The position numbers were made by a program, and so were the translations under genes. The notes beneath the pieces were generated by a model. The model was not told where the DNA came from, searched no databases, and was given only the letters and a program-made list of their open reading frames with translations. A stretch of DNA of 64,000 nt, from the NCBI GenBank assembly GCA_017983435.1, contig JAGOBM010000003.1:4786-68785 (forward strand). Reading direction: 5' to 3'. The stretch comes from Candidatus Moraniibacteriota bacterium (lineage in GTDB: Bacteria; Patescibacteriota; Minisyncoccia; Moranbacterales; UBA1568). Shown here in pieces: positions 44,635 to 60,546 of this stretch (positions are counted from its first letter, which is position 1; every line of letters starts with the position of its first letter).

Positions 44635-44637
44635 CCT

Positions 44638-45015
44638 TTAAGCACGCTTCGATGCACCGAGCAGAGAATGGATGGCCGTCGCCAGGATCGACCAATAGAA
44701 AACAAAATAGATACCGACAAACGGAGGAGGTGGATCTTCCTTCAAGAAATTCACCTGAGGCAGAGCCAATGGTCCTATCAAAACAATTTTGAGAGGCAAT
44801 ATGATCACAGATGCCGTCCTCTTCCAGGCGATCAGTGAGTCACTGCCGGTATTCAGGATAGAATCGGGCGAATGAGGGAAACCCCGAGGGCCCGTTGATC
44901 CCAGAAGCGTCGTGGTGATAAACATGAAAACAAACCCGGAAACAACAAAGAGGATGACAAATTTTTTTCTTGAGATATTCATAAGCATCCAATACTCACT
45001 CTGTACGCATATCAA
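44638..45015 (-). CDS. small 2-TM membrane protein (paralogue of 53655-53999)
   Basis: 125 aa; about 75% identical to the 53655-53999 product (GPRGFP...IVLIGPLALPQ...FLKEDPPPPF); 4-bp overlap with the upstream CcdA-thioredoxin gene. Confidence 0.5.
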   Translation of the reverse strand: MICVQSEYWMLMNISRKKFVILFVVSGFVFMFITTTLLGSTGPRGFPHSPDSILNTGSDSLIAWKRTASVIILPLKIVLIGPLALPQVNFLKEDPPPPFVGIYFVFYWSILATAIHSLLGASKRA

Positions 45016-46772: not shown

Positions 46773-46858
46773 ATAGTGTTTTAAAAAAATATTACCAAGA
46801 GGAACAGCTCTGCAGAAACTGTCCCGGCTTCGTACTACTTTCTACGCCAATAGCCTCA

Positions 46859-47413
46859 TTATTTCACTTTGGTAAGCAACTCGCTCAATCCCTCGCTCCC
46901 AGACCATTTCGCGATCATATTTCCAGACGCGTCAACCTGCACCAGTGTGTGCTGATAGGTGACACCATACTGTTTCTTAAGATCCGCATTCTTGTCGTAA
47001 TCCACATCAAGAATCAGCACGTTCTGCGGAATCCGACTGAGATTCGCTTTGATATCGGCATCCAAAGCACGACAGGTCGGACACCACGAGGCACGGAAGA
47101 AGAGCACTACTTTGCCATCTTTCGCAAAAGCAATCTTTGATGCGTCATATGAGGCATATTGCCCACCCTTGATCATCACATCGCTTTGCTTCATCATGGC
47201 ATCTTCTTTGACCATCGTCTCCGGCTTTTTCTCCATCATGGCCTCAGGTTGCTGCATAGCCTCTTCTTTTTTCTCCATCGCTCCTTTTTCAGCCGTGACC
47301 TTTTCTTCCATCATGGCCTTGTCTTGCATAGCCTGTTGATTGGACGTATACCACCAGCCGCCAAGGGCAACAGCTATTCCCAACACAATCACTCCCATTA
47401 TCATTTTATTCAT
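46859..47413 (-). CDS. thioredoxin-family protein, membrane-anchored
   Basis: FFRASWCPTCRALD. Confidence 0.75.
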   Translation of the reverse strand: MNKMIMGVIVLGIAVALGGWWYTSNQQAMQDKAMMEEKVTAEKGAMEKKEEAMQQPEAMMEKKPETMVKEDAMMKQSDVMIKGGQYASYDASKIAFAKDGKVVLFFRASWCPTCRALDADIKANLSRIPQNVLILDVDYDKNADLKKQYGVTYQHTLVQVDASGNMIAKWSGSEGLSELLTKVK

Positions 47414-47464
47414 ATCGTTTCACCTCCTTTCATATGTTGATTTATACTCGAGTCATTTTTATAT

Positions 47465-47830
47465 CTAATAGTGCTTCTCGGCATAGTAGCGTCCCAGTAT
47501 TTTCGCCAATACCATCCCGGTCAGAACCAGCGGCAACCATGGATCGATCTTATGTGAAAGCGCCTGCACAATAATTCCCGTAAGCAGGAGTGTCCCGCCA
47601 GCGGTGTAGGCGAATCGAGTACCGATAAAGCGATGGAGCTGCTCACGCTCATCCATCACACTCTCCTTCCATAAAAACATAGCAAAGATCGAAAACAGAG
47701 TGACGATCAACCCGAGCAGCGTCATATGGACAGCGTCCGTCATCCAAAAACCGAACGGGTTGACAAACCACACGAGAAAAATAACCAGGAGCACTGACAC
47801 GATTTTTTCTGAAAAGATCTTCGACAACAT
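47465..47830 (-). CDS. small multi-TM membrane protein (DUF2178-like partner of the XRE regulator)
   Basis: 121 aa, 4 TM; 2-bp gap to the upstream HTH gene. Confidence 0.45.
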   Translation of the reverse strand: MLSKIFSEKIVSVLLVIFLVWFVNPFGFWMTDAVHMTLLGLIVTLFSIFAMFLWKESVMDEREQLHRFIGTRFAYTAGGTLLLTGIIVQALSHKIDPWLPLVLTGMVLAKILGRYYAEKHY

Positions 47831-47832
47831 AC

Positions 47833-48039
47833 TTATGCTTTAATGGTAAATATCTTCTCCATGGGAACACAAAAATATTTTGCTATCTTGAGCGCCAAGA
47901 GCACCGAGGGAGTATAATTCCCTTTCTCGAGAGCGATAATCGTCTGGCGCGTAACACCCACGGCCTGTGCAAGCTGTTCCTGGGTGAGCCCTCGCATCTT
48001 CCTCAAATCTTCTATTCTATTTTCGACCATTTCCTGCAT
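47833..48039 (-). CDS. XRE-family helix-turn-helix transcriptional regulator
   Basis: [29 protein letters not shown]. Confidence 0.8.
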
Positions 48040-48042
48040 ACA

Positions 48043-48066
48043 ATATGTAAAACTGACTTTACATAT
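48043..48066. promoter_or_regulatory. perfect palindrome ATATGTAAA-N6-TTTACATAT upstream of the XRE gene (candidate operator); a further half-site CTTTACATAT at about 48112
   Basis: 9-bp inverted repeat about 5 bp upstream of the XRE start codon. Confidence 0.45.
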
Positions 48067-48198
48067 TCATTCTAGACTATTCACACACAATGTCAAGCTT
48101 ACTTTACATATTTTTTCTCTCAAAATTCACGTATATCTTAGATAACAAAAAAACCGCCCTCATTACTGAGAGCGGCTACGTGATTTTAAGCCAGTTCT

Positions 48199-48585
48199 TT
48201 ATCCTTCTACTTCAACCTTGAATCCACCATAAGCCATGCGCTTCATATCGACAGGCATCACCATATCTTTATATTCTTCCGCCTTCTCGCCCATCTCTTC
48301 CATCACCTTGGCATTGACTTCGTCTCGATGCTCTTTGGAGTTGAAGACGATAAATGAGAACCAAACCGTCTCATCACTGGTTGCTCCAGTCATTTCAGGA
48401 AATGCGCGTGTCTTTTCGTCACCCATTTCCTGAGGAGCAAGATCATCTCCGCGGCACTCATAGTATTCAAGTGCACCATATTTCATCCAGGCATCGCGAC
48501 CACCTTCTGCCATTTTCTTGTATTCTTCAGCTTTGTCTTTTGGAACCACCAGCACGAATCCATCCACATATTTTCCTTCGTTCAT
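48199..48585 (-). CDS. DUF1428-family protein
   Basis: VDGFVLVVPKDKAEEYKKMAE...YGALEYYEC. Confidence 0.6.
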   Translation of the reverse strand: MNEGKYVDGFVLVVPKDKAEEYKKMAEGGRDAWMKYGALEYYECRGDDLAPQEMGDEKTRAFPEMTGATSDETVWFSFIVFNSKEHRDEVNAKVMEEMGEKAEEYKDMVMPVDMKRMAYGGFKVEVEG

Positions 48586-48640
48586 ACGCTTAACGCTAAA
48601 AATTACCTTTCTAGTATATCAGGCCTCCTCTATGGTGTAC

Positions 48641-48674
48641 AAAAAATAGGCTTAAATAAGCCTATTTTTATTTG
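48641..48674. terminator. bidirectional terminator hairpin AGGCTTA-AA-TAAGCCT with A/T flanks
   Basis: Downstream of the DUF1428 gene and directly followed by the att-like repeat. Confidence 0.55.
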
Positions 48675-48716
48675 CTTCGACGGCTGGAACACTCACTGCT
48701 CTCCGCCAGCTGGCGG
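48675..48716. repeat. degenerate copy of the tRNA-Asn 3' end (CTTCGACGGCTGGAA) plus the 14-bp palindrome CCGCCAGCTGGCGG
   Basis: 16 of 18 nt match TTGGCTCCGACGGCTGGA, the tRNA-Asn 3' end at 57931. The palindrome is also present at about 52677 and 53218. Confidence 0.45.
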
Positions 48717-48968
48717 ATGCGCTCTATAGGGCTTTCCACCTCGGCTTCGCCTTAGCGAGACGGGCCGCCCTTCTAGTCCTCGGAAGACCTCGGTCACCCC
48801 AAACGGGAAACTCCTGTTTCCCGACCCCTGCCTACCGGCAGGCAGGCCTTCCCGTTCGAATCCAACCGCTTTGAATAAATACAAAAAAGGCGCCCCAATG
48901 GACGCTCTTTTTGCATATGCTCCGAGCGATGAAAGAAGTTCGAACCGCCATCAAAAGCTCTACATTCA

Positions 48969-50051
48969 CTACTTTCTAAGCAGATCAAAAAATGCCCTAT
49001 GGAAATAAAGTCTTTCTCTGCCGATTTTTTCACTTTTGAGCAGGCCTATCCTTTCAAGCTCTACCAGATATTTTCCTGCAGTTTTTTCTTTCACGATTCC
49101 AGCATCGACAAGAAACTTTCTCTTGGAATACGGCAACTGAAAGAGAGTGTTTACCAGTTCTTTCGAATAGATATTCGGCGCCTTTTCTTTGATCATCTGC
49201 TCAGTCGATTCCATTAGAGAGCAGATATCATGGATCTTTTGCTCTGTATACTTTGCGGTCTGCTCCACAGCGTCCAGCATATATAAAATCCACGATTCCC
49301 ATTCCTCTCTTTCCGTCACTCCGCGCAACTTCACATAATAATCACTCTTATTCTCCAATATATATTTACTAAGATACAGGATAGGATGTTCCAAGAGACC
49401 CGTAAGAACGAGGAAGAGGATATTCAAAATACGTCCCGTCCTTCCGTTTCCATCATGAAAAGGATGAATAGACTCAAATTGATAGTGCAGAACCGCCATC
49501 TTCACCAAAGGATCTATTCCGTCCTTCTGATCATTTATGTACTGTTCCAAATTCTTCAGTTTCTCAAGAATAACAGCCTCTCCTTCCGGTGGCGTGTACA
49601 CAATCTCTCCCGTGGCAGGATTGGCAATTTTTGTCCCAGGAATCTTTCGAATACCTCCGTCCGTCTGTTTGATAGCCTGCATCATCTCTATGAGAACTCT
49701 AGCACTGATAAATCCGTTCTCGCGTATAAAGCCATAGCCGTACCACAATGCTTTCGGGTAAGAAATAACTTCTTTTAAATTTGGATCTGTGACGCTTTCC
49801 AATGCTAACGACTGGTAGAGCTCATCATTCGTGGTGACAATATTTTCAATTTCCGAACTCAACTTCGCTTCCTGAAGAATAACCGCATTCGCAAGCAGAG
49901 ATTCATTTGGCAATCTTTTGTTCGATGCATCAAGAGCAGCGAGAGCGGCTCTAGCCCCTATCGCTTTTTTCAAAATAGCTGCGGTTTCTAATTCCTTCAG
50001 GGGCGGAAGGAGTGGTAAATCGTTATATGGTTTCTGACGATCAAAAGACAT
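48969..50051 (-). CDS. Fic-family protein (putative AMPylator)
   Basis: HPFHDGNGRTGR Fic motif; 360 aa; lower-GC gene. Confidence 0.85.
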   Translation of the reverse strand: MSFDRQKPYNDLPLLPPLKELETAAILKKAIGARAALAALDASNKRLPNESLLANAVILQEAKLSSEIENIVTTNDELYQSLALESVTDPNLKEVISYPKALWYGYGFIRENGFISARVLIEMMQAIKQTDGGIRKIPGTKIANPATGEIVYTPPEGEAVILEKLKNLEQYINDQKDGIDPLVKMAVLHYQFESIHPFHDGNGRTGRILNILFLVLTGLLEHPILYLSKYILENKSDYYVKLRGVTEREEWESWILYMLDAVEQTAKYTEQKIHDICSLMESTEQMIKEKAPNIYSKELVNTLFQLPYSKRKFLVDAGIVKEKTAGKYLVELERIGLLKSEKIGRERLYFHRAFFDLLRK

Positions 50052-50422
50052 ATATTTCTTTTAATACTTATAGGGTTCTTTGCTATTTTGATAATAGTAC
50101 ATACGGGCAATAAAGTAAAGTAAATGCCCGTATTCGTTTAATACGGGCATTCAATGCCCCTACCATAAAAATGCAGGCATTTATACAAAAATCATGCCTC
50201 AATCAATAAAAATCCAATGACGTTCGAACTGATTTTATAGCATAAAAGAGCCAAAATATGGCTCTTTTATGAACTAGCTCCCCTTAGTGGATGAACTTAG
50301 AACTTTAGATTGGAGAAGGATTGGGAAGATGGTAACAGAAATGGAGCGGGTTTTAGTGTAAAAATTTTTGAAGCCGCTGGGTGATACCATGCGGCCTCTG
50401 TATTCGCGCCCCGTTCGGACGC

Positions 50423-50692
50423 CTAGTTGGTCTTCATCTTGGCCATGTAGATCATGGTGCTGTGGCCGTTGATGCCGAACTCGGTCTGGATGCGGAAAGT
50501 AACGAATCCTTCACCGAGCTTCTGCTTGATCGTCTCTTCCCAGCTGGGGCCAAAGTAGCCAGCCCAGAACTCTGCCACCTGCGTCAGGTCCAGGTTCTGG
50601 TTTGCGATGATCGTGAGCAGCTGCTCGGGATTTTCGACACCACCGCGCAGAGCTTGTTCGATGACTTCGCGAGAAACGCCTTGCATGTTCAT
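50423..50692 (-). CDS. hypothetical small protein with atypical GC-rich codon usage
   Basis: 89-aa ORF; GC3-rich, unlike the AT-rich flanks. Confidence 0.35.
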   Translation of the reverse strand: MNMQGVSREVIEQALRGGVENPEQLLTIIANQNLDLTQVAEFWAGYFGPSWEETIKQKLGEGFVTFRIQTEFGINGHSTMIYMAKMKTN

Positions 50693-50794
50693 CTCCTTGT
50701 GAGAACTTTCCCTTTCAGCCGGGAACGTGGCCGTTGCTCAGTCAGAACTTGCAACTATGAAGTATAGCACCTTTCACGTCCGGTGTCAATATAA

Positions 50795-50830
50795 AAACAT
50801 AAATAGAGGCTCATATAAGCCTCTATTTGG
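50795..50830. terminator. bidirectional terminator hairpin AGAGGCT-CATATA-AGCCTCT
   Basis: Perfect 7-bp stem with A/T flanks. Confidence 0.55.
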
Positions 50831-51040
50831 AACTTGCTCCGCCTACTGAACACTATTAGAACCTCTATCCAGGAAGACAAGGCGTCAAAGCTCTACTACT
50901 TTGGCTTGAAAAGGTTTATGAAATGAATTACCTCGCAGCAAACTCCGAGGAATTCTCTTGAATTAAGGGCGGCTCTTATCCGTATTTTGTACCCCCCTTC
51001 AGAGTACCGTATTTTCATATCGCCTATTTTGTATCTTTCA

Positions 51041-51478
51041 CTAGAGTTGATCTATAGCGCTCTTCATCTCTGCGACAAGCGCCCGGACATCACCCTCGGA
51101 CAGTACCGTACGGACCGTGTTGGCATGATTCAAATCGCCCAGCCGCGTATTGGGAATGAGGTGATAGTGCAAATGTTCCACACTCTTGGCTCCACTTTTC
51201 CCCTCCCGAACCATGAGAGAAAAGTCCTCATATCCGAGATAGCGGAGGATGCGGGAACTTTTCTGAACCAAATCCCAAATATCACCCCACTCCTCCACTC
51301 CGATATCGAAAAAGGATTTCCGATGCTCTTTGGGAATGATAAGAAGATGGTGTTTGTGATATGGAGCGATCGCATAGGTGACATAGGCTGTCTCATTCTC
51401 AATCAACCGACGATCATCGGAAGCACAGAACGGACACGTCCCCACAGGAAGTGCTTGTACGTATTCGGCGTACTTCAT
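51041..51478 (-). CDS. HIT-family (histidine triad) protein
   Basis: HLHYHLIP histidine triad, 145 aa. Confidence 0.8.
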   Translation of the reverse strand: MKYAEYVQALPVGTCPFCASDDRRLIENETAYVTYAIAPYHKHHLLIIPKEHRKSFFDIGVEEWGDIWDLVQKSSRILRYLGYEDFSLMVREGKSGAKSVEHLHYHLIPNTRLGDLNHANTVRTVLSEGDVRALVAEMKSAIDQL

Positions 51479-51541
51479 ACTGGAACAGTCATACTAAGAG
51501 TGTAGGGTATCCTTCGATACATTTCTAGTATACCACTAGTT

Positions 51542-52543
51542 TCAACCATTGTTTCCATGAGCAGAGAACCATTGACCTTCGCTGCTCTTTTTGAGAACTT
51601 TGCCCGTCGGAATAGAGGCGGAGTGGTAGAAATAATCAAAAACTTTGCCAAGGGTAATGACAGGAACATCGGGAATAACATGCGCACGGACCAGAGGAAG
51701 ATTCCCAAACGGCACTGATGGCAACAGGTGATGTTCAAAATGATACCAGGTATGATGGGGCAGAAATAAGGCCCGCTGCCATACAGTGGCATAAAAACGG
51801 TGCGTACCCGGAGTGCCGACATGTTCAGTCCAAACCCTCAGTCGGAAAACTGCAAAACAGGACGTGAGGAGAGAGAATATCCAAATTCCAAATACCCAAA
51901 GCATACCAGCGTACCAGAAAACACCCAGAATAAGCCCCCAGTACAGAAACATCTGGCTCTCTATGGGAACGTCTTTGCCCCCTTGTCCAGAAAGCGTGTC
52001 TTCTGTCTTGGTATCGAGAGCGCCATGAACATACCTCTTACCGAAAAACTGCAAAATGGTTCTTCTCTTATACCATACGATTCCGATACCCGTTAAGTCG
52101 CTCAGGATGATGCCTAGGAGTCGGACAGGCGAAATGGGTATATCCCAGGCTGGCGCCTCCAGAAACTTGCTCTCCAGCTCTGGATCTCTTTCCGTACCAA
52201 GGAATCGATGGTGACGGAAGTGATACTCCCGATATTCCCCAAGGGGGAGAAAAATCGGCCAGCTCGCCAACGCTCGTGTCAAAAAATCGTTCAGCTTCAG
52301 ATTATTCGTTATGAGCCAGTGGGCACCATCATGGGAAAGAATGCCCAGCGCGTGTTGGCGTGTACCGATGACAGCAATCGCAAAGAAAGCCGCCCACCAG
52401 GTCTGAAATGAAAACACAAAAACATAGGCCATGAGAATGACAGACCAATCGAAAAATACATTTCCGAGCCAGCGCCAGATATTCTTGTGGCCTAGCTGAG
52501 GCTGAGCAAGAATGGAGTCGCCCGATAATGACCGCTCTTTCAT
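51542..52543 (-). CDS. membrane fatty-acid desaturase family protein
   Basis: Three His boxes (HDGAHW, HRFHH-like YHFRHHRF, FEHHLLP); multi-TM. Confidence 0.8.
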   Translation of the reverse strand: MKERSLSGDSILAQPQLGHKNIWRWLGNVFFDWSVILMAYVFVFSFQTWWAAFFAIAVIGTRQHALGILSHDGAHWLITNNLKLNDFLTRALASWPIFLPLGEYREYHFRHHRFLGTERDPELESKFLEAPAWDIPISPVRLLGIILSDLTGIGIVWYKRRTILQFFGKRYVHGALDTKTEDTLSGQGGKDVPIESQMFLYWGLILGVFWYAGMLWVFGIWIFSLLTSCFAVFRLRVWTEHVGTPGTHRFYATVWQRALFLPHHTWYHFEHHLLPSVPFGNLPLVRAHVIPDVPVITLGKVFDYFYHSASIPTGKVLKKSSEGQWFSAHGNNG

Positions 52544-52657
52544 ACGTTATCCGCTATTCACTCTGACACACTGATTTTAGCTGCTATCACAAAATGACGC
52601 AAAGGATTTCAGAGGAGTAAACCAGCTTATCGTAGGTTTTCACTTTCATGCAGCGTA

Positions 52658-52708
52658 GCAACAAAAAACAAGGCTTCCGCCAGCTGGCGGATATGGCCTT
52701 GTTTTTAA
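52658..52708. repeat. copy B of the GCAACAAAAAACAAGGCTT terminator-type repeat, with the CCGCCAGCTGGCGGATATG insert in its loop
   Basis: 19-nt identity with the tRNA-Asn-proximal terminator at 57894. Confidence 0.5.
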
Positions 52709-52779
52709 CTGCCCGCCTAGATTACCCCCTTCAGTATGCCGGGTCTCGCCTTCGCTTTTTTATATGCTAAAATACGCAT

Positions 52780-53187
52780 ATGAATACTATTCAGAATATA
52801 AAAAATGGTAGTACTCTCCCCGAAGAAAAACCGGGAGCGCCTATCTACCCTGAAGACGTTGGCCTCGGCAGTATTGGGGAAGAGGCGGCCAGCAACCTTC
52901 CCGATCATCTTCAAAAAATAGAGGGGAGAATGAAGAAAGATAATGTCTGGTCGCCTGTTCAGACAGAAAGCGACACCCGATTTATGCCACTTCCTGAGTG
53001 GATAACGCTTGTGATGGTTCCAAGGGATACAATGAACTTAGAAAAACTTCTTCTACCGGGAAATTATTGTGTCGGCGGCATGGCAGCATATGAACAAAAA
53101 GCCGGGGCTTTCCCTAACCTATCACCAGAACTTATGAAACTTTTTGAAGAATATGAGGAAATGCTGGCAAACCTGAGAAAAATATGA
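52780..53187 (+). CDS. hypothetical protein
   Basis: 135-aa ORF bracketed by repeat copies B and C. Confidence 0.4.
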   Translation: MNTIQNIKNGSTLPEEKPGAPIYPEDVGLGSIGEEAASNLPDHLQKIEGRMKKDNVWSPVQTESDTRFMPLPEWITLVMVPRDTMNLEKLLLPGNYCVGGMAAYEQKAGAFPNLSPELMKLFEEYEEMLANLRKI

Positions 53188-53198
53188 GTATTTTTTGA

Positions 53199-53250
53199 GC
53201 AACAAAAAACAAGGCTTCCGCCAGCTGGCGGATATAGCCTCGTTTTCTCA
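53199..53250. repeat. copy C of the same terminator-type repeat, with the palindrome insert
   Basis: GCAACAAAAAACAAGGCTT-CCGCCAGCTGGCGGATATA-GCCTCGTTTT. Confidence 0.5.
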
Positions 53251-53334
53251 GCTCAACTTGTTGGATGCTGTTGAGAGTCCACTGAATCCATTTCCAGTTG
53301 GAGAATCCCCCAGATGTATTCTAGCGACGATTAC

Positions 53335-53598
53335 TCATTTGGAACGATGCACGCAACCGGCCCAACAACAGGGTCTGCGCATGCCAGACTTGAGTTTTGA
53401 AAGACCCACTTCGATTCGACGCTTTCTTGTTTCCTCCTTCTTGGCATCGAGAATCCAACAAATCCACTCATTACGTGCGAGTGGCGTAATATCCTGCCAG
53501 AGAGCATGCGCCAAAGGTGTCGCCGTAAGTGCTTTCCGCCAATCTGCCGGCACACTATGCACCATGCCCTCGGGAATTTCTTTTTTGAACTGACGCAT
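53335..53598 (-). CDS. YdeI/OmpD-associated family protein
   Basis: ARNEWICWILDAKKEETRKRRI pattern, 87 aa. Confidence 0.5.
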   Translation of the reverse strand: MRQFKKEIPEGMVHSVPADWRKALTATPLAHALWQDITPLARNEWICWILDAKKEETRKRRIEVGLSKLKSGMRRPCCWAGCVHRSK

Positions 53599-53654
53599 AG
53601 TTGAAAGTATTCTTCTTCATTGTGAGTATACCGCGCTTGCATCTTTCCCATCCT

Positions 53655-53999
53655 TTAAGGACGTTCTGTTTTTCCGAAGAAATGACGGATAGTTAAGGCA
53701 AGGATAGTCCAGTAGCAGACGAGATAGATACCGATAAACGGCGGTGGAGGGTCTTCTTTCAAGAAATGAATCTGAGGCAAAGCCAAGGGTCCTATGAGGA
53801 CGATTTTTATAGGCAAGAGAACTGTGGACACGACACGCTTCCAGACGATCGGTGAGTCGCTACCGGTCCTAAGGACAGAGTCGGGAGGCTGAGGAAAACC
53901 TCGGGGTCCTGTTGTTCCTAAAAGCGAGGTGGTGATAAAAAGAAAAGCAAATCCAGAAACGAGGAAGAGGACGACGAATTTTTTCCTTGAAGTGTTCAT
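53655..53999 (-). CDS. small 2-TM membrane protein (paralogue of 44638-45015)
   Basis: 114 aa; about 75% amino-acid and about 75-80% nucleotide identity to the 44638-45015 gene. Confidence 0.5.
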   Translation of the reverse strand: MNTSRKKFVVLFLVSGFAFLFITTSLLGTTGPRGFPQPPDSVLRTGSDSPIVWKRVVSTVLLPIKIVLIGPLALPQIHFLKEDPPPPFIGIYLVCYWTILALTIRHFFGKTERP

Positions 54000-54091
54000 A
54001 TCGATCGAACACCGAATCCCTTGCGTTAGTTACAAGTATCGGGTCTGGGCTTCCATCTCAATCTTATCACACGTTCTAACCCTCACTTTGA

Positions 54092-54157
54092 GCAACAAAA
54101 AACAAGGCTTCATTAGGCCTCGTTTTCTTAGCTCGCCTGGCGGGACAACTTCCGAAC
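54092..54157. repeat. copy D of the terminator-type repeat followed by a degenerate tRNA-Asn 3'-end-like segment
   Basis: GCAACAAAAAACAAGGCTT-CATTAG-GCCTCGTTTTCTT then AGCTCGCCTGGCGGGACAACTTCCGAAC, about 65% matched to GGCTCCGACGGCTGGATTCGAACC. Confidence 0.45.
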
Positions 54158-54227: not shown

Positions 54228-55286
54228 CTATAGCTGATATTTCCCCCTCACTATTTCTTTTGCAACGTCGTCTCTTACCTGCTTTTTTGGCGACTTAAAC
54301 ATCAGGCTACTTATTTCCTCCAAATGACCCGACTCACCGTTATCTAACGCTATTTTCATAGCCCGAATGACATCAACCATTATCCCAGCACTATTCGGAC
54401 TATCCTCAACACTCAACTTTAAGTCCACTTCAAACGGAATATTTCCAAATTGACGGCCTTTTATGTTGATATAACAGACTTTATTATCCTTCAAATGTGG
54501 TATAAAATCGCTTGGTCCGATACGAACATCTGCCAGACCCCCATCAAGAATAGAGGTCACCGCCTGAGTTTTAGATTTCCTCTTACTCAATAGACGATTC
54601 TGATCGAGCATATTTTCAAAATCTGAATTCCCACCGACATTCAGTTGAAATGTACTGTCAATAACTTGTCCCCGATCTTCTATGAGTCGCGATAATACCC
54701 TGTGAATGATTGTGGCTCCGACTTGAGACTTTATGTCATCACCAGCGCACGGCAATCCTTTCTCCCTAAATTTATCTATCCACTCATCGTCAGAACAAAT
54801 AAACTCCGGTATGGCATTGATAAAACCGATACCAGCATCAATAGCTGCCTGCGCATAAAACCGGGCGGCTTTCGCGCTTCCAACCGGAAGATAGCATATG
54901 AGCATGTCCGCTCCGGAACGCTCCAATTCACCGATGACATCGCATTCTTTTTGCGACTCATCGACAAGAAAAGTCTGTCGCATATGATCAGCAACACCAT
55001 CCAGAATTGGCGCCTTCTGAACAATCACTCCAGTAACCGAGACATCGCATATCTCTTTCGTGCAGTTCGATCCAGCATTGATCGCTACAGAAAGATCATT
55101 CCCAACTTTTCTCTTATCGACATCAAATGCGGCAACAAACTCTATGTCACTTACGTGATATCCACCAAATTCAGCATGAAGTAGACCAACGACTGGATTA
55201 TCCTTATTCGTATAATACACACAGCCCTGTATCAATGAACTTGCACAGTTGCCGACCCCGGCTATGGCTACCCTTATCTTTCCCAT
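54228..55286 (-). CDS. inositol-3-phosphate (myo-inositol-1-phosphate) synthase, short type
   Basis: N-terminal Rossmann fold VAIAGVGNCASSL; 352 aa like archaeal/bacterial MIPS; low GC. Confidence 0.65.
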   Translation of the reverse strand: MGKIRVAIAGVGNCASSLIQGCVYYTNKDNPVVGLLHAEFGGYHVSDIEFVAAFDVDKRKVGNDLSVAINAGSNCTKEICDVSVTGVIVQKAPILDGVADHMRQTFLVDESQKECDVIGELERSGADMLICYLPVGSAKAARFYAQAAIDAGIGFINAIPEFICSDDEWIDKFREKGLPCAGDDIKSQVGATIIHRVLSRLIEDRGQVIDSTFQLNVGGNSDFENMLDQNRLLSKRKSKTQAVTSILDGGLADVRIGPSDFIPHLKDNKVCYINIKGRQFGNIPFEVDLKLSVEDSPNSAGIMVDVIRAMKIALDNGESGHLEEISSLMFKSPKKQVRDDVAKEIVRGKYQL

Positions 55287-55291
55287 ATGTA

Positions 55292-55858
55292 TTACTCTTT
55301 ACCGAATTCATTCCGACTGAGGTACGAGGAGACACCAACATGCAATGTAGCCTCCTTCATTTCTCCACTCTTCATTTTCTCTAATAACTCTTCGAGTGAC
55401 ATCCTTATCAAACGAATATTTTCACTCTCATCCTGAGAATAAGAATTTCCCGTGTCCTCTTTTAATTCTGTCGCGAGAAAAATATGCTTCGTACATGTCG
55501 TTCTTCCCGAATCGGGATAGTACGTAAGAAGTTTCTCCATATGATTCGCCAACATCCCGGTTTCTTCCGCTAATTCTCTCCTCGCGGCATCAATCGGTTG
55601 TTCGCCCTTTTCGACACCGCCACCGGGCAAATCTATCGTAACATCCCCAACGGCATGTCTATACTGCTTTACTAGAAAGACATTGTTATCTCTATCGACA
55701 GCCAGAATCGCAATGAGCTCCCCTCCTTCCACCGTATAAAAATCATCCAATATCTTACCATTCGGTAACTCAACTGTTTCTTTCTTCACCTTGAGCCACC
55801 TCGTATCAAGAGCATGTTCCGATCCCAGAGACTTCCAAAATAGTTTTTTGTCTTCCAT
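55292..55858 (-). CDS. NUDIX hydrolase
   Basis: NUDIX box GGVEKGEQPIDAARRELAEETG. Start set at MEDKKLFW to avoid overlap. Confidence 0.75.
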   Translation of the reverse strand: MEDKKLFWKSLGSEHALDTRWLKVKKETVELPNGKILDDFYTVEGGELIAILAVDRDNNVFLVKQYRHAVGDVTIDLPGGGVEKGEQPIDAARRELAEETGMLANHMEKLLTYYPDSGRTTCTKHIFLATELKEDTGNSYSQDESENIRLIRMSLEELLEKMKSGEMKEATLHVGVSSYLSRNEFGKE

Positions 55859-55871
55859 ATAATTTTGACAA

Positions 55872-57032
55872 TTACTGATAAATAAGTTCCAAAGATTCCA
55901 ATTGTTTAGCGAGGGAAAATTCAGATCGGATAGAGCGCTTCCCACCACTTACCAGTATAGCTGACAAAACACTGTCATTCCTAATACGCAGTATTTTATC
56001 GGCCAGATCCTTCGGATCCATTGGTTTTGACAACAACCCGTTGACCTCATCCTTTATGACCTCATCTATACCGAAAGTGTTGCTCCCGATTACTGGAATA
56101 CCAGCGGCCATTCCCTCAAGCAAAACGATCCCCAGCCCTTCCACGTGTGATGGCAATACACAAACATCACAATTTGCAAGAACATGTGGCATAGTCTCCA
56201 GACTTTCTTTGTCTACAACAATTTTTACCCTATCGAGAAGTCCATTCTTTTCTATATACTCATTGATCAGCGTCAGATACTCACCAGATCCATTCTTCAC
56301 AGATGTGGGAACAAAAAGCTTTATCTTTCTATCACCAAGAATTTGTATGGCTTTTATAAGATCTAAAATACCCTTTCGACGTATCATTCTCGCTGGACAC
56401 GCAACGATAAAATCATCCTTCTCGTAACCGTATCGTGTCCTCCACGAGGGATCTTTTTCTACCGAAAAATCCTTTTCATCGATCCCGTGATAAACAAGCC
56501 TAGTTTTGCTTTCGTCAGCCCCCAACTTCAATGCCCAATCGTAGTAATAACGACTTGGGCACACAAGCGTATCATAAAACGGCAGTTTTATGATAAATGA
56601 AGCGAAAGCTTTCTCTACGCTGTAATCGGAAAAATGACCAATAATTTTCCCTTCTTCAGGAATCGGCGTGCTGTGAAACGTAAATATAGTCTTCTTGGTC
56701 CTCACTAAGGACAAGAGTGAAGCATAGGCAAGCCCTGGCATGAAGTTATGAACATGCACCACATCAAAGGTATCATCCGAGATAGCCTTCGCAAAATCAT
56801 CGAGAATGGCGCGAAAAGAAGCTTTCCCTTTCTCGAAGTCCCTAAAACCTCCGATTCTTATCACGGAAAATCTATTTTCTTCATTCTCTGACTCTGAAAG
56901 TGCGCTGTCACCTCCGGTGATAACGGTAACTTCGTGTCCCCTTTCAGAGAGTCTGGTCGCCAAAAGATACATATGTGTTTCCCCTCCACCGATTTGTGGC
57001 GGAAAACTGTGATTGATAAGACAGATCTTCAT
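55872..57032 (-). CDS. glycosyltransferase family 4 (GT-B, retaining)
   Basis: N-terminal MKICLINHSFPPQIGGGETH; C-terminal EGLGIVLLEGMAAGIPVIGS E-x7-E motif. Confidence 0.8.
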   Translation of the reverse strand: MKICLINHSFPPQIGGGETHMYLLATRLSERGHEVTVITGGDSALSESENEENRFSVIRIGGFRDFEKGKASFRAILDDFAKAISDDTFDVVHVHNFMPGLAYASLLSLVRTKKTIFTFHSTPIPEEGKIIGHFSDYSVEKAFASFIIKLPFYDTLVCPSRYYYDWALKLGADESKTRLVYHGIDEKDFSVEKDPSWRTRYGYEKDDFIVACPARMIRRKGILDLIKAIQILGDRKIKLFVPTSVKNGSGEYLTLINEYIEKNGLLDRVKIVVDKESLETMPHVLANCDVCVLPSHVEGLGIVLLEGMAAGIPVIGSNTFGIDEVIKDEVNGLLSKPMDPKDLADKILRIRNDSVLSAILVSGGKRSIRSEFSLAKQLESLELIYQ

Positions 57033-57078
57033 ACTGTTATGAATCTAAAAAAGACTCGGGTCCATATCTGGGCCCGAG

Positions 57079-57810
57079 CTAACCACTCATCCAAAACTCT
57101 TGGAAAAGAAACCCCAGATATCTTTTCCAAGTACCAAGGTCATCCCATTCGTTTCTCAAGATGTAGCATTCCCCACCGTGCTTCGCATACACCCATTCGA
57201 CAATGTCTTTCGTCATATTATATGCGCCACCAATAGACAATTGGTCTATGCACTCTCTCAGCGCGTCAAACCGAAATATGGGAATCCCGGTATATGCCAC
57301 TCTTGATTTCCGATGAAAAAACTTATGAAGCACTTTCTCGGAATTGAGTTGCACATCTATATAGTCATGGTGTGCCTCATCGCTATAGATGCCAACCATC
57401 AACAACGCGGGGGCGTTTCTTTCCACATAATATCGGAGTAAGTCCTGAACCGGCAGACGGACAAGATGGTCCCCATTCAGAACGATTACGACATCCGGCG
57501 CATAGTCACAAACTGTCTGCCAATGTTGTAGTACTGCCCCGCCGGTATCAAGTGCCGCCAGCTCAACAAGGACAGAGACATTCGGGTACTTCTCCCGGAC
57601 ATAATGCGCCACCTGTCGAGACTTGTACCGGGCAAGCACAACCGTCTTCCCTTCAACACCAGAGATGCCTCGGACATCACTGCTTTCGATGGCATAGTCG
57701 AGGATTTTCCTGTTGTTCATTGCTGGCAGAAGCGTCTTTTGGCTAAAAAACGTGGCTGGCCTAAGCCGAGTTCCTTTGCCACCAGACAAAACCAAAAACA
57801 TGACTTTCAT
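57079..57810 (-). CDS. sugar-/alcohol-phosphate nucleotidyltransferase (NTP-transferase fold)
   Basis: LSGGKGTRLRP motif. The N-terminal extension of the longer ORF merely translates the terminator repeat and is rejected. Confidence 0.65.
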   Translation of the reverse strand: MKVMFLVLSGGKGTRLRPATFFSQKTLLPAMNNRKILDYAIESSDVRGISGVEGKTVVLARYKSRQVAHYVREKYPNVSVLVELAALDTGGAVLQHWQTVCDYAPDVVIVLNGDHLVRLPVQDLLRYYVERNAPALLMVGIYSDEAHHDYIDVQLNSEKVLHKFFHRKSRVAYTGIPIFRFDALRECIDQLSIGGAYNMTKDIVEWVYAKHGGECYILRNEWDDLGTWKRYLGFLFQEFWMSG

Positions 57811-57893
57811 GGCAATCTCCCAAATATTTGAATGTGCTACCCCGACCGTATCATGCATAACCGAAATGGTCAACGGTTCGAATCCCGTTTTAG

Positions 57894-57930
57894 GTAACAA
57901 AAAACAAGGCTTTTGCAAGCCTCGTTTTGT
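57894..57930. terminator. bidirectional terminator AACAAAAAACAAGGCTT-TTGCA-AGCCTCGTTTTGTT, immediately 3' of tRNA-Asn
   Basis: Stem CAAGGCTT/AAGCCTCG with A-run and T-run flanks; master copy of repeats B, C and D. Confidence 0.6.
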
Positions 57931-58005
57931 TGGCTCCGACGGCTGGATTCGAACCAGCGACCAAGTGGTTAACAGCCACCTGCTCTACCACTGAGCTACG
58001 TCGGA
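57931..58005 (-). tRNA. tRNA-Asn (anticodon GUU), CCA encoded
   Basis: Hand-folded cloverleaf: acceptor UCCGACG/CGUCGGA, D-arm GCUC-AGUGGUA-GAGC, anticodon arm GGUGG-CUGUUAA-CCACU, T-arm GCUGG-UUCGAAU-CCAGC, discriminator G, CCA. Confidence 0.85.
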
Positions 58006-59121: not shown

Positions 59122-60546
59122 TTAGTAGTCCTTGAGCTTCTTCAGGTGATCGTGTTCACGGATCTTCTCGAGGGCCTTGGCCTCGATCTGGCGGATACGC
59201 TCACGGGTCACGCCGAATTCCTGGCCGACTTCCTCGAGCGTATGGGTCACGCCGTCCTCGAGTCCGAAGCGGATGCGGAGTATCTTCTGCTCACGCGGTG
59301 TCAGCTCATTCAGGATATCCGTGATGTGCTGCTTCAAGAGCTTGCGGGAAGCCGACTGGTTCGGCATCACCGTCTCGGTATCCTCGATGAAATCTCCGAG
59401 TACCGAGTCATCCTCGCTATCACCGACGCTGGTCTCGAGCGAGACGGTCTCCTGTGAGATCTTCTGGATATGGCGGATCTTGTCGACTTCGATATTCATT
59501 TCCGCGGCGATCTCCTCAGCGAGCGGCTCACGGCCGAGCTCCTGCACCAGCCGGCGGGTCACCTGGGCATACTTGTTGATCGTCTCCACCATGTGCACCG
59601 GGATACGGATAGTCCGCGACTGGTCAGCCAGCGCACGGGTAATCGCCTGACGAATCCACCAGGTAGCATAGGTCGAGAACTTGAAGCCTTTCTGATAATC
59701 GAATTTCTCCACGGCGCGGAACAGACCGATATTCCCCTCCTGGATGAGATCGAGGAGTGACAGATTGTGCGAGCGGCCGACATACTTCTTGGCGATCGAC
59801 ACCACGAGCCGAAGATTGGCCTCTGTGAGGCGCTGTTTGGCATTGAGATCGCCCTTCTCAATCGCCTTGGCGAGCTTGACCTCCTCTTCACCGTTCAGGA
59901 GCGGCACCCGGCCGATTTCCTTGAGATACATCTGGACCAAGTCGGCGGACACTTCATCCTCGCCCATGTCGATCAGACGCTCCTTGGCTTTGGCAGCTTC
60001 CTTGGCGCTCTTGTCATGACCATACTTCTCGCCTTCTTTGACAGTCTCGATCTTGAGCATCTCCTCCGATCCGACGATACGGATACCGCCGGTCTCGAGC
60101 TTCTCATAGAGCGCTTCGAGACCTTCGAGATCCTGCTCGACATCCGGCAGGATATGAATGATCTCATCTTCCGTCACGAAGCCGCGCTGCTTGCCGCGAG
60201 CCAGGAGCTCATCGACCGCGTTCTTCTGAGCGGCTGCTCGATTTTCCTGCTTGGCGATCGCTTTCTTCGAAATCGGCTTGACGACCTTCTTCGGTGCTGG
60301 CTTGGCAGCCTTTTTCGGAGCGACTTTCTTCGGCTTGGCAGCTGGCTTCACCACTTTCTTGACCGGCTTCTTCGCTACTTTCTTCGGTGCTGGCTTGGCA
60401 GCTTTCTTGTGAGCGACCGGCTTCTTCGCCGGCTTGTGCTTCACGGCCGGCTTGACCGCTTTCTTGGCGGCTTTTTTGACAGCCTTGTGCACGACCTTTT
60501 TGACCGGCTTGTTTACTTTCTTCGCCGCGACTTTCTTCTGTGCCAT
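59122..60546 (-). CDS. rpoD: primary sigma factor RpoD with an approximately 105-aa Lys/Ala/Pro-rich basic N-terminal extension
   Basis: Regions 2-4 conserved ([53 protein letters not shown]). The N-terminus consists of [10 protein letters not shown]-type repeats. Confidence 0.9.

What the first reader, a model, noticed from the sequence alone, without database searches (positions are those of the whole stretch)
54228..57810. Low-GC four-gene module: inositol-3-phosphate synthase, NUDIX, GT4 glycosyltransferase and NTP-transferase; putative inositol-phosphate-derived glycoconjugate or solute pathway
All four genes are co-directional, tightly spaced and markedly more AT-rich than the backbone. 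They are bounded by tRNA-Asn plus its terminator on one side and repeat copy D on the other. MIPS combined with a GT4 enzyme is the logic of MshA-type GlcNAc-inositol-phosphate synthesis or PimA-type inositol mannosylation. MIPS combined with an NTP-transferase is the logic of CDP-inositol or di-myo-inositol-phosphate synthesis. A NUDIX enzyme could hydrolyse the nucleotide-activated intermediate. Such a pathway would be unusual cargo for a small reduced genome.
Basis: partly seen in the sequence, partly recalled or inferred. Interest (0 to 1): 0.55.

Follow-up and report, generated by a model that had tools for sequence, protein, structure and literature searches.

The report
Mobile sugar–inositol operon in a CPR bacterium
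A horizontally acquired four-gene operon in a tiny-genome Moranbacteria-type bacterium makes inositol phosphate and an activated sugar (probably ADP-glucose-like) and most likely joins them into a glycosyl-inositol-phosphate of unknown role; it is a real, uncharacterised but chemically unsurprising variant of known pathways.

Summary
Four intact, co-directional genes lie on the minus strand at 54228-57810. They are an NTP-transferase, a GT4 glycosyltransferase, a NUDIX hydrolase and an inositol-3-phosphate synthase (MIPS). Their GC is 0.439 against a backbone of 0.548±0.012. tRNA-Asn and a 59-nt degenerate copy of its 3' end plus terminator bound them.

- MIPS is genuine (382 bits to M. tuberculosis Ino1).
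- The NTP-transferase is closest to ADP-glucose pyrophosphorylase, not to an inositol-phosphate cytidylyltransferase.
- The NUDIX belongs to the ADP-ribose/ADP-sugar pyrophosphatase family.
- The GT4 is not MshA, PimA or BshA. It defines a tiny family of about 30 proteins, nearly all from CPR bacteria.

The conserved unit is the NTP-transferase–GT4–NUDIX triad. MIPS is attached in the same order in about 8 diverged lineages and absent from the locus in at least 4.

The cassette sits in different places in different hosts: next to tRNAs, next to a serine recombinase, or in a defence island. It is usually lower in GC than its flanks, so it is mobile cargo.

Best guess (about 0.4): ADP-hexose plus inositol-3-phosphate gives a glycosyl-inositol-phosphate, with the NUDIX trimming the donor pool. 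CDP-inositol/DIP and mycothiol readings are not supported. This is a new variant of a known kind, of moderate interest.

The parts
57079..57810 (-). Short sugar-1-phosphate nucleotidylyltransferase (243 aa). It has a GlgC-like catalytic domain and no C-terminal beta-helix domain. It is the first gene of the operon.
   Evidence: PF00483, 7e-21. No NCBIfam equivalog is passed (Arch_glmU 60.6, glgC 58.8 bits). The AF2 model has pLDDT 91. Foldseek top hits are ADP-glucose pyrophosphorylases, then GDP-mannose PPase. Only 7 representatives of 1.84 billion reach E<=1e-30. The nearest named outgroups are mostly GlgC. The G10-G11-x-G13-x-R15-L16 loop is invariant.
55872..57032 (-). Retaining GT4 (GT-B) glycosyltransferase (386 aa) of a small CPR-restricted family. 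It is the presumed coupling enzyme.
   Evidence: PF00534 and PF13439 match. The best equivalogs all fall far below cutoff: BshA 99/273.7, GlgM-type 89.8/302, MshA 63.5/462.5. The AF2 model has pLDDT 92. Foldseek ranks HepE, MshA, SPS, BshA and GlgM about equally, TM 0.74-0.83. The search found 38 hits at E<=1e-20; about 30 of them are >=37% identical, and every one of those that carries a source name is CPR. Invariant residues are G15/G16, R215/K220, E298...E306 and the family motif FT[FY]HSTP[IV]P.
55292..55858 (-). NUDIX hydrolase (188 aa) of the ADP-ribose / ADP-sugar (NDP-sugar) pyrophosphatase family.
   Evidence: PF00293, 9e-18. The precomputed annotation also gives PF28549 NDPSase_N. 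PDB matches are ADP-ribose pyrophosphatases 8WV3 and 1V8I at E~1e-21, and human ADP-sugar pyrophosphatase NUDT5 at 3e-11. The Nudix box GX5EX7REUXEEXGU is intact in the window and in 7 of 8 orthologues.
54228..55286 (-). myo-Inositol-3-phosphate synthase (352 aa), the short bacterial type. It is the last gene of the operon.
   Evidence: PF01658, 102.5 bits. TIGR03450 scores 442.9 bits, below the actinobacterial equivalog cutoff of 638. M. tuberculosis Ino1 (1GR0) matches at E 1.9e-113 over residues 3-343. The five-membered-cyclitol-phosphate synthase 6K96 matches only at 2.5e-52.
57931..58005 (-). tRNA-Asn(GTT), the upstream boundary and probable integration target.
   Evidence: ARAGORN. Rfam tRNA, 74 bits.
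57889..57947 (-). 3' end of tRNA-Asn plus its intrinsic terminator. It is the reference copy of the island-bounding repeat.
   Evidence: Repeat families D3 and D5. Hairpin at 57907-57922 followed by a T-run. Alignment.
54087..54145 (-). 'Repeat copy D', a degenerate (75%) copy of the tRNA-Asn 3' end plus terminator hairpin. It is the downstream boundary and the likely operon terminator.
   Evidence: (hairpin at 54105-54120).
57857..57885 (+). Inverted remnant of the 3' half of a tRNA-Asn (anticodon loop to T-arm), between the terminator and the NTP-transferase start.
   Evidence: Local alignment to the window's tRNA-Asn and to the L012 tRNA-Asn: TAACCGAAATGGTCAACGGTTCGAATCC. The same sequence is present upstream of the module in L088.

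Best explanation
The region is a horizontally acquired, co-transcribed four-gene operon of a Moranbacteria-type CPR bacterium. It supplies both substrates of a retaining GT4 glycosyltransferase and couples them.

Proposed steps:
1. MIPS cyclises glucose-6-phosphate to myo-inositol-3-phosphate. The family assignment is shown.
2. The short GlgC-like nucleotidylyltransferase activates a hexose-1-phosphate to an NDP-hexose. ADP-glucose is most likely and GDP-mannose is second. The fold and family are shown; the donor identity is inferred.
3. The GT4 transfers the sugar to inositol-3-phosphate, giving an alpha-glycosyl-inositol-phosphate. This is the logic of MshA, GgpS and SPS, which glycosylate a phosphorylated small acceptor. 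This step is inferred from gene linkage and fold only.
4. The ADP-sugar-pyrophosphatase-type NUDIX hydrolyses surplus NDP-sugar. It acts as a valve on the donor pool, as E. coli AspP does for ADP-glucose. This step is inferred.

No phosphatase is encoded. The end product may therefore stay phosphorylated, or a host phosphatase may remove the phosphate.

The NTPT-GT4-NUDIX triad is the ancestral, self-sufficient unit. MIPS is an add-on that has been kept in many lineages and lost from the locus in others.
For: Operon and origin:
- Operon architecture is tight, with gaps of 46, 13 and 5 nt and terminator hairpins at both ends.
- The module is foreign. GC is 0.439 against 0.548±0.012, with tRNA-Asn and a tRNA-3'-end repeat at the borders.
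- The module is lower in GC than at least one flank in all nine host loci measured (L041 only on its left, by 0.001).
- It sits at different sites in different hosts: tRNA-Asp in L010, a serine recombinase with type I RM and KAP NTPase genes in L041, and sigma-70/tRNA-Asn in L088.

Linkage to MIPS:
- The same order NTPT-GT4-NUDIX-MIPS is seen in the window, L088, L010, L041, L043 and L042.
- The proteins are 55-79% identical across these loci and all are intact.
- Cassette MIPS proteins are 76-79% identical to the window's; the next-best hits are <=73%.

Enzyme assignments:
- MIPS scores 382 bits to Ino1.
- For the NTPT, Foldseek top hits are ADP-glucose PPases. The nearest named relatives in an exhaustive profile search are mostly GlgC, and two of them pass the GlgC equivalog cutoff.
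- The NUDIX matches ADP-ribose/ADP-sugar pyrophosphatases at E 1e-21 and has an intact Nudix box.
- A bacterial ASPP Nudix cleaves ADP-glucose, ADP-ribose and ADP-mannose (PMC9773146).
- The GT4's closest structures are small-acceptor retaining enzymes: MshA, BshA, SPS and GlgM. Its catalytic and donor-binding residues are invariant.
- MshA glycosylates inositol-phosphate (PMC6178380). GgpS couples ADP-glucose to glycerol-3-phosphate (PMC6004087 abstract).
- The module contains no polyprenyl-phosphate transferase, flippase or polymerase.
Against: - No biochemical evidence exists, and the acceptor cannot be read from the sequence.
- The GT4 N-terminal (acceptor) domain matches known structures only weakly, E>=1e-4.
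- The MshA equivalog aligns only the C-terminal domain.
- Foldseek also ranks a polysaccharide enzyme (HepE) first.
- The triad persists intact without an adjacent MIPS in L004/L011, L009, L094 and L006.
- MIPS-plus and MIPS-minus loci are interspersed in the GT4 tree.
- The acceptor-side motif is invariant in both groups. Either those genomes have MIPS elsewhere, which I could not test, or inositol phosphate is not the acceptor.
- The donor nucleotide is not resolved. GlgC, archaeal GlmU, RmlA and GDP-mannose models all score 43-61 bits.
- No phosphatase is present in the module, and no IMPase motif occurs in the window.
Confidence: 0.4

Rival explanations
1. The triad is a generic glycosylation unit. 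NTPT, GT4 and NUDIX make and spend an NDP-sugar on an acceptor unrelated to inositol. The acceptor could be glucose-1-phosphate (GlgM-like), another sugar phosphate, or a cell-surface or protein target. MIPS is then a co-transferred neighbour that supplies inositol for some other purpose.
For: - The triad occurs alone in at least four lineages, including a stable chromosomal site between a prepilin peptidase and a histidine kinase.
- In L004 a methyltransferase takes the position of MIPS.
- The distant triad clade (GT4 43% identical) has no MIPS.
- The GT4 hits the GlgM-type model full length at 89.8 bits, and polysaccharide GT4s such as EpsE and HepE also rank highly.
Against: - MIPS is translationally tight to the NUDIX gene, with 4-46 nt gaps, in about 8 diverged lineages.
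- Its identity to the window's MIPS across those loci (77-79%) parallels the conservation of the other three genes.
- The module has no membrane-anchoring, flippase or polymerase genes.
- All equivalog cutoffs for GlgM and EPS enzymes are missed by a wide margin.
Confidence: 0.3
2. The module is the start of an MshA-type pathway. UDP-GlcNAc plus inositol phosphate gives GlcNAc-inositol-phosphate, the first step towards a mycothiol-like thiol or a GlcN-inositol compound.
For: - MIPS best matches the mycothiol_INO1 model and Mtb Ino1.
- The GT4's best sequence hits are BshA and BaBshA, and MshA is the second-ranked structure.
- The NTPT's top NCBIfam hit is the nucleotidyltransferase half of archaeal GlmU.
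- The nearest non-cassette MIPS examined (70% identical) sits with IMPase, a GT and a PIG-L (MshB-like) deacetylase.
Against: - The MshA equivalog scores 63.5 against 462.5 and aligns only residues 170-385. BshA scores 99 against 273.7.
- No PIG-L deacetylase, ligase or acetyltransferase lies in or near the module.
- NTPT structure and profile neighbours are GlgC-like, not GlmU-like.
- The NUDIX is of the ADP-sugar type.
- The L089 GT is unrelated to this GT4.
Confidence: 0.1
3. The pathway is CDP-inositol / di-myo-inositol-phosphate or phosphatidylinositol-mannoside synthesis. The NTP-transferase activates inositol phosphate (IPCT-like), or the GT4 mannosylates phosphatidylinositol (PimA-like).
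For:
- Some orthologues show faint PF12804 hits.
- PimA and PimB' appear among the GT4 hits.
Against: - IPCT is not among the PDB sequence hits nor among the top 50 Foldseek hits.
- The nearest named relatives are GlgC and GDP-mannose PPase.
- No CDP-alcohol phosphatidyltransferase motif occurs anywhere in the 64-kb window.
- PimA aligns over only about 90 residues at E 4e-7.
- The triad exists without MIPS, which argues for a sugar-1-phosphate substrate.
- From general enzymology, NDP-inositol is not a plausible GT-B donor (my own knowledge).
Confidence: 0.04
4. The cassette has a conflict or defence role. It could alter a surface or metabolite to block phage or host attack, or manipulate NDP-sugar pools. 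This would explain its position in variable islands.
For: - Neighbours are often TA modules, Fic, HIT, type I RM, KAP NTPase, recombinases and an IS element.
- The GT4 cross-hits PF20706 GT4-conflict at 1e-9.
- The NUDIX weakly hits PADLOC candidate PDC-S07 at 2e-8.
Against: - PADLOC finds nothing for MIPS, the GT4 or the NTPT.
- The PF20706 hit (38 bits) is much weaker than the generic GT4 models (107 bits).
- The vWA-type systems where that family was described are absent.
- The cassette is not found on any IMG/VR viral contig.
- In L094 the triad sits among housekeeping genes.
- This reading concerns the biological role and does not exclude the biochemical scheme above.
Confidence: 0.12

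Closest known systems
MshA step of mycothiol biosynthesis (Ino1 + GT4 MshA: UDP-GlcNAc + inositol-phosphate -> GlcNAc-Ins-P; PMC6178380)
   Same: A bacterial short-type MIPS is paired with a retaining GT4 that has a small-acceptor architecture. MshA is among the top structural neighbours, TM about 0.8. MIPS scores 382 bits to Mtb Ino1.
   Different: - The GT4 fails the MshA equivalog (63.5/462.5), and its N-terminal acceptor domain is not MshA-like.
- There are no MshB, MshC or MshD genes.
- A dedicated GlgC-like nucleotidyltransferase and an ADP-sugar-type NUDIX are present, which the mycothiol pathway lacks.
- The host is CPR, not Actinobacteria.
Two-step glycoside-phosphate solute pathways that use ADP-glucose (for example GgpS: ADP-glucose + glycerol-3-phosphate -> glucosylglycerol-phosphate; PMC6004087), and GlgC/GlgM (ADP-glucose + Glc-1-P -> maltose-1-phosphate)
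   Same: An NDP-glucose donor made by a GlgC-type enzyme is transferred to a phosphorylated small acceptor. GlgM and SPS are GT4 enzymes among the structural neighbours. The GlgM-type model aligns full length.
   Different: - No cognate phosphatase gene is present.
- The acceptor-supplying enzyme here is MIPS.
- The NTPT lacks the regulatory C-terminal domain of GlgC (243 aa against about 420 aa).
- All equivalog cutoffs are missed.
- GgpS belongs to a different GT family (my own knowledge).
AspP/NudF-type ADP-sugar pyrophosphatases, which control ADP-glucose pools (PMC9773146, citing Moreno-Bruna 2001)
   Same: It is the same NUDIX subfamily (E 1e-21 to ADPRases; NUDT5 at 3e-11), with an intact Nudix box and an NDPSase_N domain.
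   Different: Here the hydrolase is encoded inside the operon, between the transferase and MIPS, and is conserved with them. Its substrate is untested. The Pro that aligns in ADPRases is shifted by two positions (alignment), and the meaning of this is unknown.
IPCT/DIPPS (CDP-inositol and di-myo-inositol-phosphate synthesis in hyperthermophiles)
   Same: MIPS and a nucleotidyltransferase are encoded together.
   Different: The NTPT is not IPCT-like. No CDP-alcohol phosphatidyltransferase is present. A GT4 and a NUDIX are present instead.

Membership tests
myo-Inositol-3-phosphate synthase (MIPS/Ino1) | Inos-1-P_synth catalytic domain above Pfam gathering score | tested here: met
   PF01658 scores 102.5 bits against a cutoff of 27 and covers the full profile, positions 1-107.
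myo-Inositol-3-phosphate synthase (MIPS/Ino1) | Full-length similarity to a structurally and biochemically defined MIPS, stronger than to MIPS-fold enzymes of other function | tested here: met
   1GR0 (Mtb Ino1) matches at E 1.9e-113 over residues 3-343. Five-membered-cyclitol-phosphate synthase 6K96 matches at 2.5e-52.
myo-Inositol-3-phosphate synthase (MIPS/Ino1) | NCBIfam equivalog TIGR03450 (actinobacterial mycothiol-type INO1) trusted cutoff | tested here: not met
   The score is 442.9 bits against a cutoff of 638. The protein is in the same family but is not the actinobacterial orthologue group.
myo-Inositol-3-phosphate synthase (MIPS/Ino1) | Conversion of glucose-6-phosphate to inositol-3-phosphate | not testable with these tools
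   This needs an enzyme assay.
MshA (D-inositol-3-phosphate glycosyltransferase) | Full-length match to TIGR03449 above cutoff, including the inositol-phosphate-binding N-terminal domain | tested here: not met
   The score is 63.5 bits against 462.5, and only residues 170-385 align. The N-domain alone finds no MshA at E<=1.
MshA (D-inositol-3-phosphate glycosyltransferase) | Retaining GT4 GT-B fold with EX7E and the donor-binding R/K pair | tested here: met
   The AF2 model has pLDDT 92. MshA 3C4Q matches at TM 0.80. E298/E306 and R215/K220 are invariant. This feature is shared by all GT4 enzymes, so it does not discriminate.
PimA/PimB (phosphatidylinositol mannosyltransferases) | Full-length homology and presence of a phosphatidylinositol supply (CDP-alcohol phosphatidyltransferase) | tested here: not met
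   PimA 2GEJ aligns only over residues 284-373 at E 4.6e-7. No CDP-alcohol transferase motif occurs in the window. The rest of the genome was not examined.
IPCT (inositol-1-phosphate cytidylyltransferase) / DIP pathway | The nucleotidyltransferase is closest to IPCT and linked to a DIPP synthase | tested here: not met
   The closest structures are ADP-glucose PPase and GDP-mannose PPase. IPCT is absent from the PDB sequence hits. No DIPPS motif was found.
GlgC (glucose-1-phosphate adenylyltransferase) | Equivalog score and a two-domain architecture (catalytic domain plus C-terminal left-handed beta-helix) | tested here: not met
   TIGR02091 scores 58.8 against 424.9. The protein is 243 aa and has the catalytic domain only. 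It is GlgC-like in fold and nearest named relatives but is not a member.
ADP-ribose / ADP-sugar pyrophosphatase NUDIX subfamily | Intact Nudix box plus N-terminal NDP-sugar-hydrolase domain and homology to characterised ADPRases | tested here: met
   The Nudix box is GGVEKGEQPIDAARRELAEETGM. PF28549 NDPSase_N is present. 8WV3 and 1V8I match at E~1e-21. All NCBIfam equivalog cutoffs are missed (NudE 62.9/169), so the exact substrate is open.
Known anti-phage defence systems (PADLOC) | Match of the component proteins to a defence-system model | tested here: not met
   Only a weak NUDIX hit to candidate PDC-S07 at 1.8e-8 was found. The other three proteins have no hits.

The most novel reading that the evidence does not exclude
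The cassette is a CPR-specific mobile pathway for a previously undescribed metabolite. The candidate is an alpha-hexosyl-myo-inositol-phosphate made from ADP-glucose and inositol-3-phosphate. A new GT4 family does the coupling, and a built-in ADP-sugar pyrophosphatase acts as regulator. Ultra-small episymbiotic bacteria might trade this pathway horizontally as a stress solute, an envelope precursor, or a factor in host or phage interaction.
Probability: 0.3. Interest if true: 0.6.

Novelty: new variant of a known kind. Interest (0 to 1): 0.4.

Why it matters
CPR/Patescibacteria have very reduced biosynthetic repertoires, so any self-contained, horizontally traded biosynthetic operon hints at what these cells need from, or display to, their surroundings.

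This cassette would add inositol chemistry to CPR biology. I found nothing on that topic in two full-text searches.

The cassette also defines two very small, divergent enzyme families:
- The GT4 family has about 30 sequences.
- The NTP-transferase family has 7 cluster representatives among 1.84 billion proteins.

Their substrates can be tested directly by expressing four small genes. If the product is a new glycosyl-inositol phosphate, that would extend the MshA/GgpS-type scheme of glycosylating a phosphorylated acceptor to a new donor/acceptor pair. It would also give a clear example of a NUDIX hydrolase built into a glycoside pathway. If the product is ordinary, the locus remains a tidy example of tRNA-targeted island accretion in a CPR genome.

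Tried and rejected
1. NUDIX-MIPS fusion as a Rosetta stone. Two long MIPS hits (P0046, 541 aa; P0048, 563 aa) turned out to be internally duplicated actinobacterial-type MIPS in an unrelated context. Rejected.
2. Phage carriage. A scan of IMG/VR with the GT4 profile found no relative.
3. Defence-system membership. PADLOC gave only a weak NUDIX hit. The PF20706 'GT4-conflict' hit is a weak cross-match, and the eLife paper describes those glycosyltransferases as effectors of vWA-type systems that are absent here.
4. IPCT/CDP-inositol. Rejected.
5. Reading the acceptor from the GT4 N-domain. A PDB search with residues 1-193 gave only weak hits (E>=1e-4) that align FTFHSTPIP with the BshA HGTD region. 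This was not informative. I could not superpose the model on MshA with bound inositol phosphate.
6. Riboswitch or other RNA in the leader or flanks. Rfam finds only the tRNA.
7. Other inositol genes in the window. Regex searches for CDP-alcohol transferase and IMPase motifs found none. One 'WMIDP' hit is a shadow ORF inside an RND transporter gene.
8. The GT next to the closest outgroup MIPS (L089) is unrelated to this GT4, so that MshA/MshB-like cluster is an analogy only.
9. The archaeal GT4 relative (P0032) sits with methyltransferases and TA genes, which was uninformative.

Full report
**Observation**

Four ORFs lie head-to-tail on the minus strand:

| Gene | Coordinates | Length | Pfam |
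|---|---|---|---|
| NTP-transferase (NTPT) | 57810..57079 | 243 aa | PF00483 |
| GT4 glycosyltransferase | 57032..55872 | 386 aa | PF00534/PF13439 |
| NUDIX hydrolase | 55858..55292 | 188 aa | PF00293 |
| Inositol-3-phosphate synthase (MIPS) | 55286..54228 | 352 aa | PF01658 |

- The start codons of the first and third genes were fixed by orthologue alignments.
- The gaps between genes are 46, 13 and 5 nt.
- Module GC is 0.439. Backbone 3.6-kb windows give 0.548±0.012, minimum 0.522.
- The low-GC tract is wider than the finding, about 45-58 kb.
- tRNA-Asn(GTT) is at 57931-58005 on the minus strand. A terminator hairpin follows it.
- 'Repeat copy D' (54087-54145) is a 75% copy of the tRNA 3' end plus that terminator. 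Further copies lie at 53198, 52657 and 48641.
The repeat pattern reads as successive islets accreted at tRNA-Asn.
- An inverted remnant of a tRNA-Asn 3' half sits just upstream of the first gene.

**Host**

- The identical module is in MAG GCA_020051655.1.
- The identical MIPS is deposited as Candidatus Moranbacteria.
- Named GT4 relatives come from Moranbacteria, Falkowbacteria, other Patescibacteria, and one MAG labelled Saccharibacteria.

**MIPS**

- It is a bona fide short bacterial MIPS. It matches M. tuberculosis Ino1 (1GR0) at E 1.9e-113 over nearly its full length.
- That is far better than its match to the MIPS-fold five-membered-cyclitol-phosphate synthase, 2.5e-52.
- It scores 443 bits on TIGR03450, below that actinobacterial equivalog's cutoff of 638.

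**NUDIX**

- It belongs to the ADP-ribose/ADP-sugar pyrophosphatase subfamily. It matches 8WV3 and 1V8I at E~1e-21 and NUDT5 at 3e-11.
- It carries the NDPSase_N domain and an intact Nudix box.

**GT4**

- It models confidently (pLDDT 92) as a retaining GT-B enzyme.
- Foldseek ranks HepE, MshA, sucrose-phosphate synthase, BshA and GlgM about equally, TM 0.74-0.83.
- No equivalog model is approached: BshA 99/273.7, GlgM-type 89.8/302, MshA 63.5/462.5 with the C-terminal domain only.
- Its N-terminal acceptor domain has only weak matches to known structures.
- It is therefore neither MshA nor PimA.
- It has invariant donor-site residues and a private motif, FT[FY]HSTP[IV]P.

**NTP-transferase**

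- It models at pLDDT 91.
- Its closest structures are ADP-glucose pyrophosphorylase catalytic domains, then GDP-mannose pyrophosphorylase.
- IPCT does not appear in the PDB sequence hits or the top 50 structural hits.
- An exhaustive profile search of 1.84 billion representatives found only 7 at E<=1e-30.
- The nearest named outgroups are mostly GlgC, and two of them pass the GlgC equivalog cutoff.
- The protein has the catalytic domain only.

**Comparative context**

- The GT4 family is tiny. The search found 38 hits at E<=1e-20, of which about 30 are >=37% identical and, where a source names them, CPR. The next hit is a 31%-identical Streptomyces protein in an unrelated NRPS/aminosugar cluster.
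- The order NTPT-GT4-NUDIX is conserved in every intact locus.
- MIPS follows directly in the window, L088, L010, L041, L043 and L042.
- MIPS is absent from the locus in L004/L011, where a methyltransferase takes its place. It is also absent in L009, in L094 (a 902-kb scaffold) and in the distant L006 clade.
- L012 (Falkowbacteria) has a decayed copy with an NTPT remnant and no NUDIX.
- In a neighbour-joining GT4 tree, MIPS-plus and MIPS-minus loci are interspersed.
- The cassette MIPS proteins are 76-79% identical to the window's; the next-best hits are <=73%.
- The simplest history is one capture of MIPS followed by repeated loss from the locus.

**Mobility**

- The cassette sits downstream of tRNA-Asn in the window and in L012, and downstream of tRNA-Asp in L010.
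- In L041 it lies beside a large serine recombinase, amid type I RM, KAP NTPase and phage-like genes.
- In L004 and L006 it lies among toxin-antitoxin genes.
- In L094 it lies between a prepilin peptidase and a histidine kinase.
- It is lower in GC than at least one flank in all nine measured host loci.
- It is not found on IMG/VR viral contigs.
- No integrase remains in the window's island.

**Mechanism**

Three independent weak signals point to ADP-sugars:
- The NTPT is GlgC-like.
- The NUDIX is of the ADP-sugar pyrophosphatase type.
- The GT4 has full-length similarity to ADP-glucose-using GT4s (GlgM-type, archaeal GlgA) as well as to BshA and MshA.

Together with the tight MIPS linkage, the best-supported scheme has four steps:
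1. Glucose-6-P is converted to inositol-3-P by MIPS.
2. A hexose-1-P plus NTP gives an NDP-hexose through the NTPT. ADP-glucose is favoured.
3. The GT4 makes an alpha-hexosyl-inositol-phosphate. This is MshA-like chemistry (PMC6178380) and parallels GgpS logic (PMC6004087).
4. The NUDIX limits the donor pool, as ASPP does for ADP-glucose (PMC9773146).

The family assignments are shown. The donor, the acceptor and the NUDIX role are inferred. I give this about 0.4.

**Rivals**

- The main rival (about 0.3) is that the triad uses an acceptor other than inositol and MIPS is a fellow traveller. Triad-only loci support this reading.
- A true MshA/mycothiol-like start gets about 0.1.
- CDP-inositol/DIP or PimA logic gets about 0.04. 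Both fail tested defining features.
- A conflict or defence role gets about 0.12. It concerns biological purpose rather than chemistry and has only contextual support.

**Other inositol genes**

No CDP-alcohol phosphatidyltransferase or IMPase motif occurs in the 64-kb window. The rest of the genome was not available.

**Novelty and score**

- Two full-text searches found no paper on MIPS in CPR/Patescibacteria.
- The pieces are known enzyme kinds in a new, phylogenetically narrow and mobile combination, so I rate this a new variant of a known kind.
- A specialist would find it a worthwhile lead that is easy to test, but not startling. Interest is 0.4.

Noticed in passing
window 48641-48688, 52657-52705, 53198-53265, 54087-54145, 57889-57947: There are five copies of a unit made of about 17 nt resembling the tRNA-Asn 3' end plus a terminator hairpin. 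The copy at 48641 keeps 15 of 16 nt of the tRNA end. The pattern looks like serial accretion of small islets at tRNA-Asn with no integrase left. Two copies (52657, 53198) carry an extra palindrome, TCCGCCAGCTGGCGGA.
   Followed up: partly
window 57857-57885 (+): An inverted remnant of the 3' half of a tRNA-Asn (anticodon loop to T-arm) lies between the tRNA-Asn terminator and the NTP-transferase start. It is also present upstream of the 93%-identical module in L088. It explains the 'GFEPLTISV' N-terminal extension in some gene calls.
   Followed up: partly
window 44632-45015 and 53649-54012: Two paralogous small membrane-protein genes (125 and 114 aa, about 75% nt identity) bracket the roughly 9-kb low-GC tract that lies next to the module. 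This suggests a duplication, or an insertion between two copies.
   Followed up: no
window 45012-53600 (low-GC tract next to the module): The tract holds miscellaneous accessory cargo: a DsbD-thioredoxin fusion (586 aa), a thioredoxin, an HTH regulator, DUF1428, a Fic/DOC protein (360 aa), a HIT hydrolase, a fatty-acid desaturase-family protein (333 aa) and OmdA. A fatty-acid desaturase is unusual for a CPR genome.
   Followed up: no
L089 6081-12987: The closest non-cassette MIPS examined (70% identical, unnamed metagenome lineage) sits in a different cluster. That cluster holds IMPase, MIPS, an archaeal-type AdoMet synthase, an unknown protein, an S51/GATase protein, a Glycos_transf_1 GT and a PIG-L deacetylase with weak MshB/Mca similarity. 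It may be a GlcN-inositol (mycothiol-like) pathway outside Actinobacteria.
   Followed up: partly
L041 1-21065: One host carries the four-gene cassette inside a dense mobile/defence region. That region has two HsdM genes, HsdS and HsdR, two large serine recombinases, a tyrosine integrase, a ParB-methylase, a KAP NTPase, a Hypoth_Ymh protein and an S24 peptidase.
   Followed up: no
L012 1619-1891: The Falkowbacteria copy of the cassette is decaying. Only the last 48-90 codons of the NTP-transferase remain, the GT4 is intact (78% identical), and NUDIX and MIPS are gone.
   Followed up: partly
window 59122-60546 (-): The sigma-70 homologue has a long lysine/alanine/proline-rich, histone-H1-like N-terminal extension of about 110 aa before region 1.1.
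   Followed up: no
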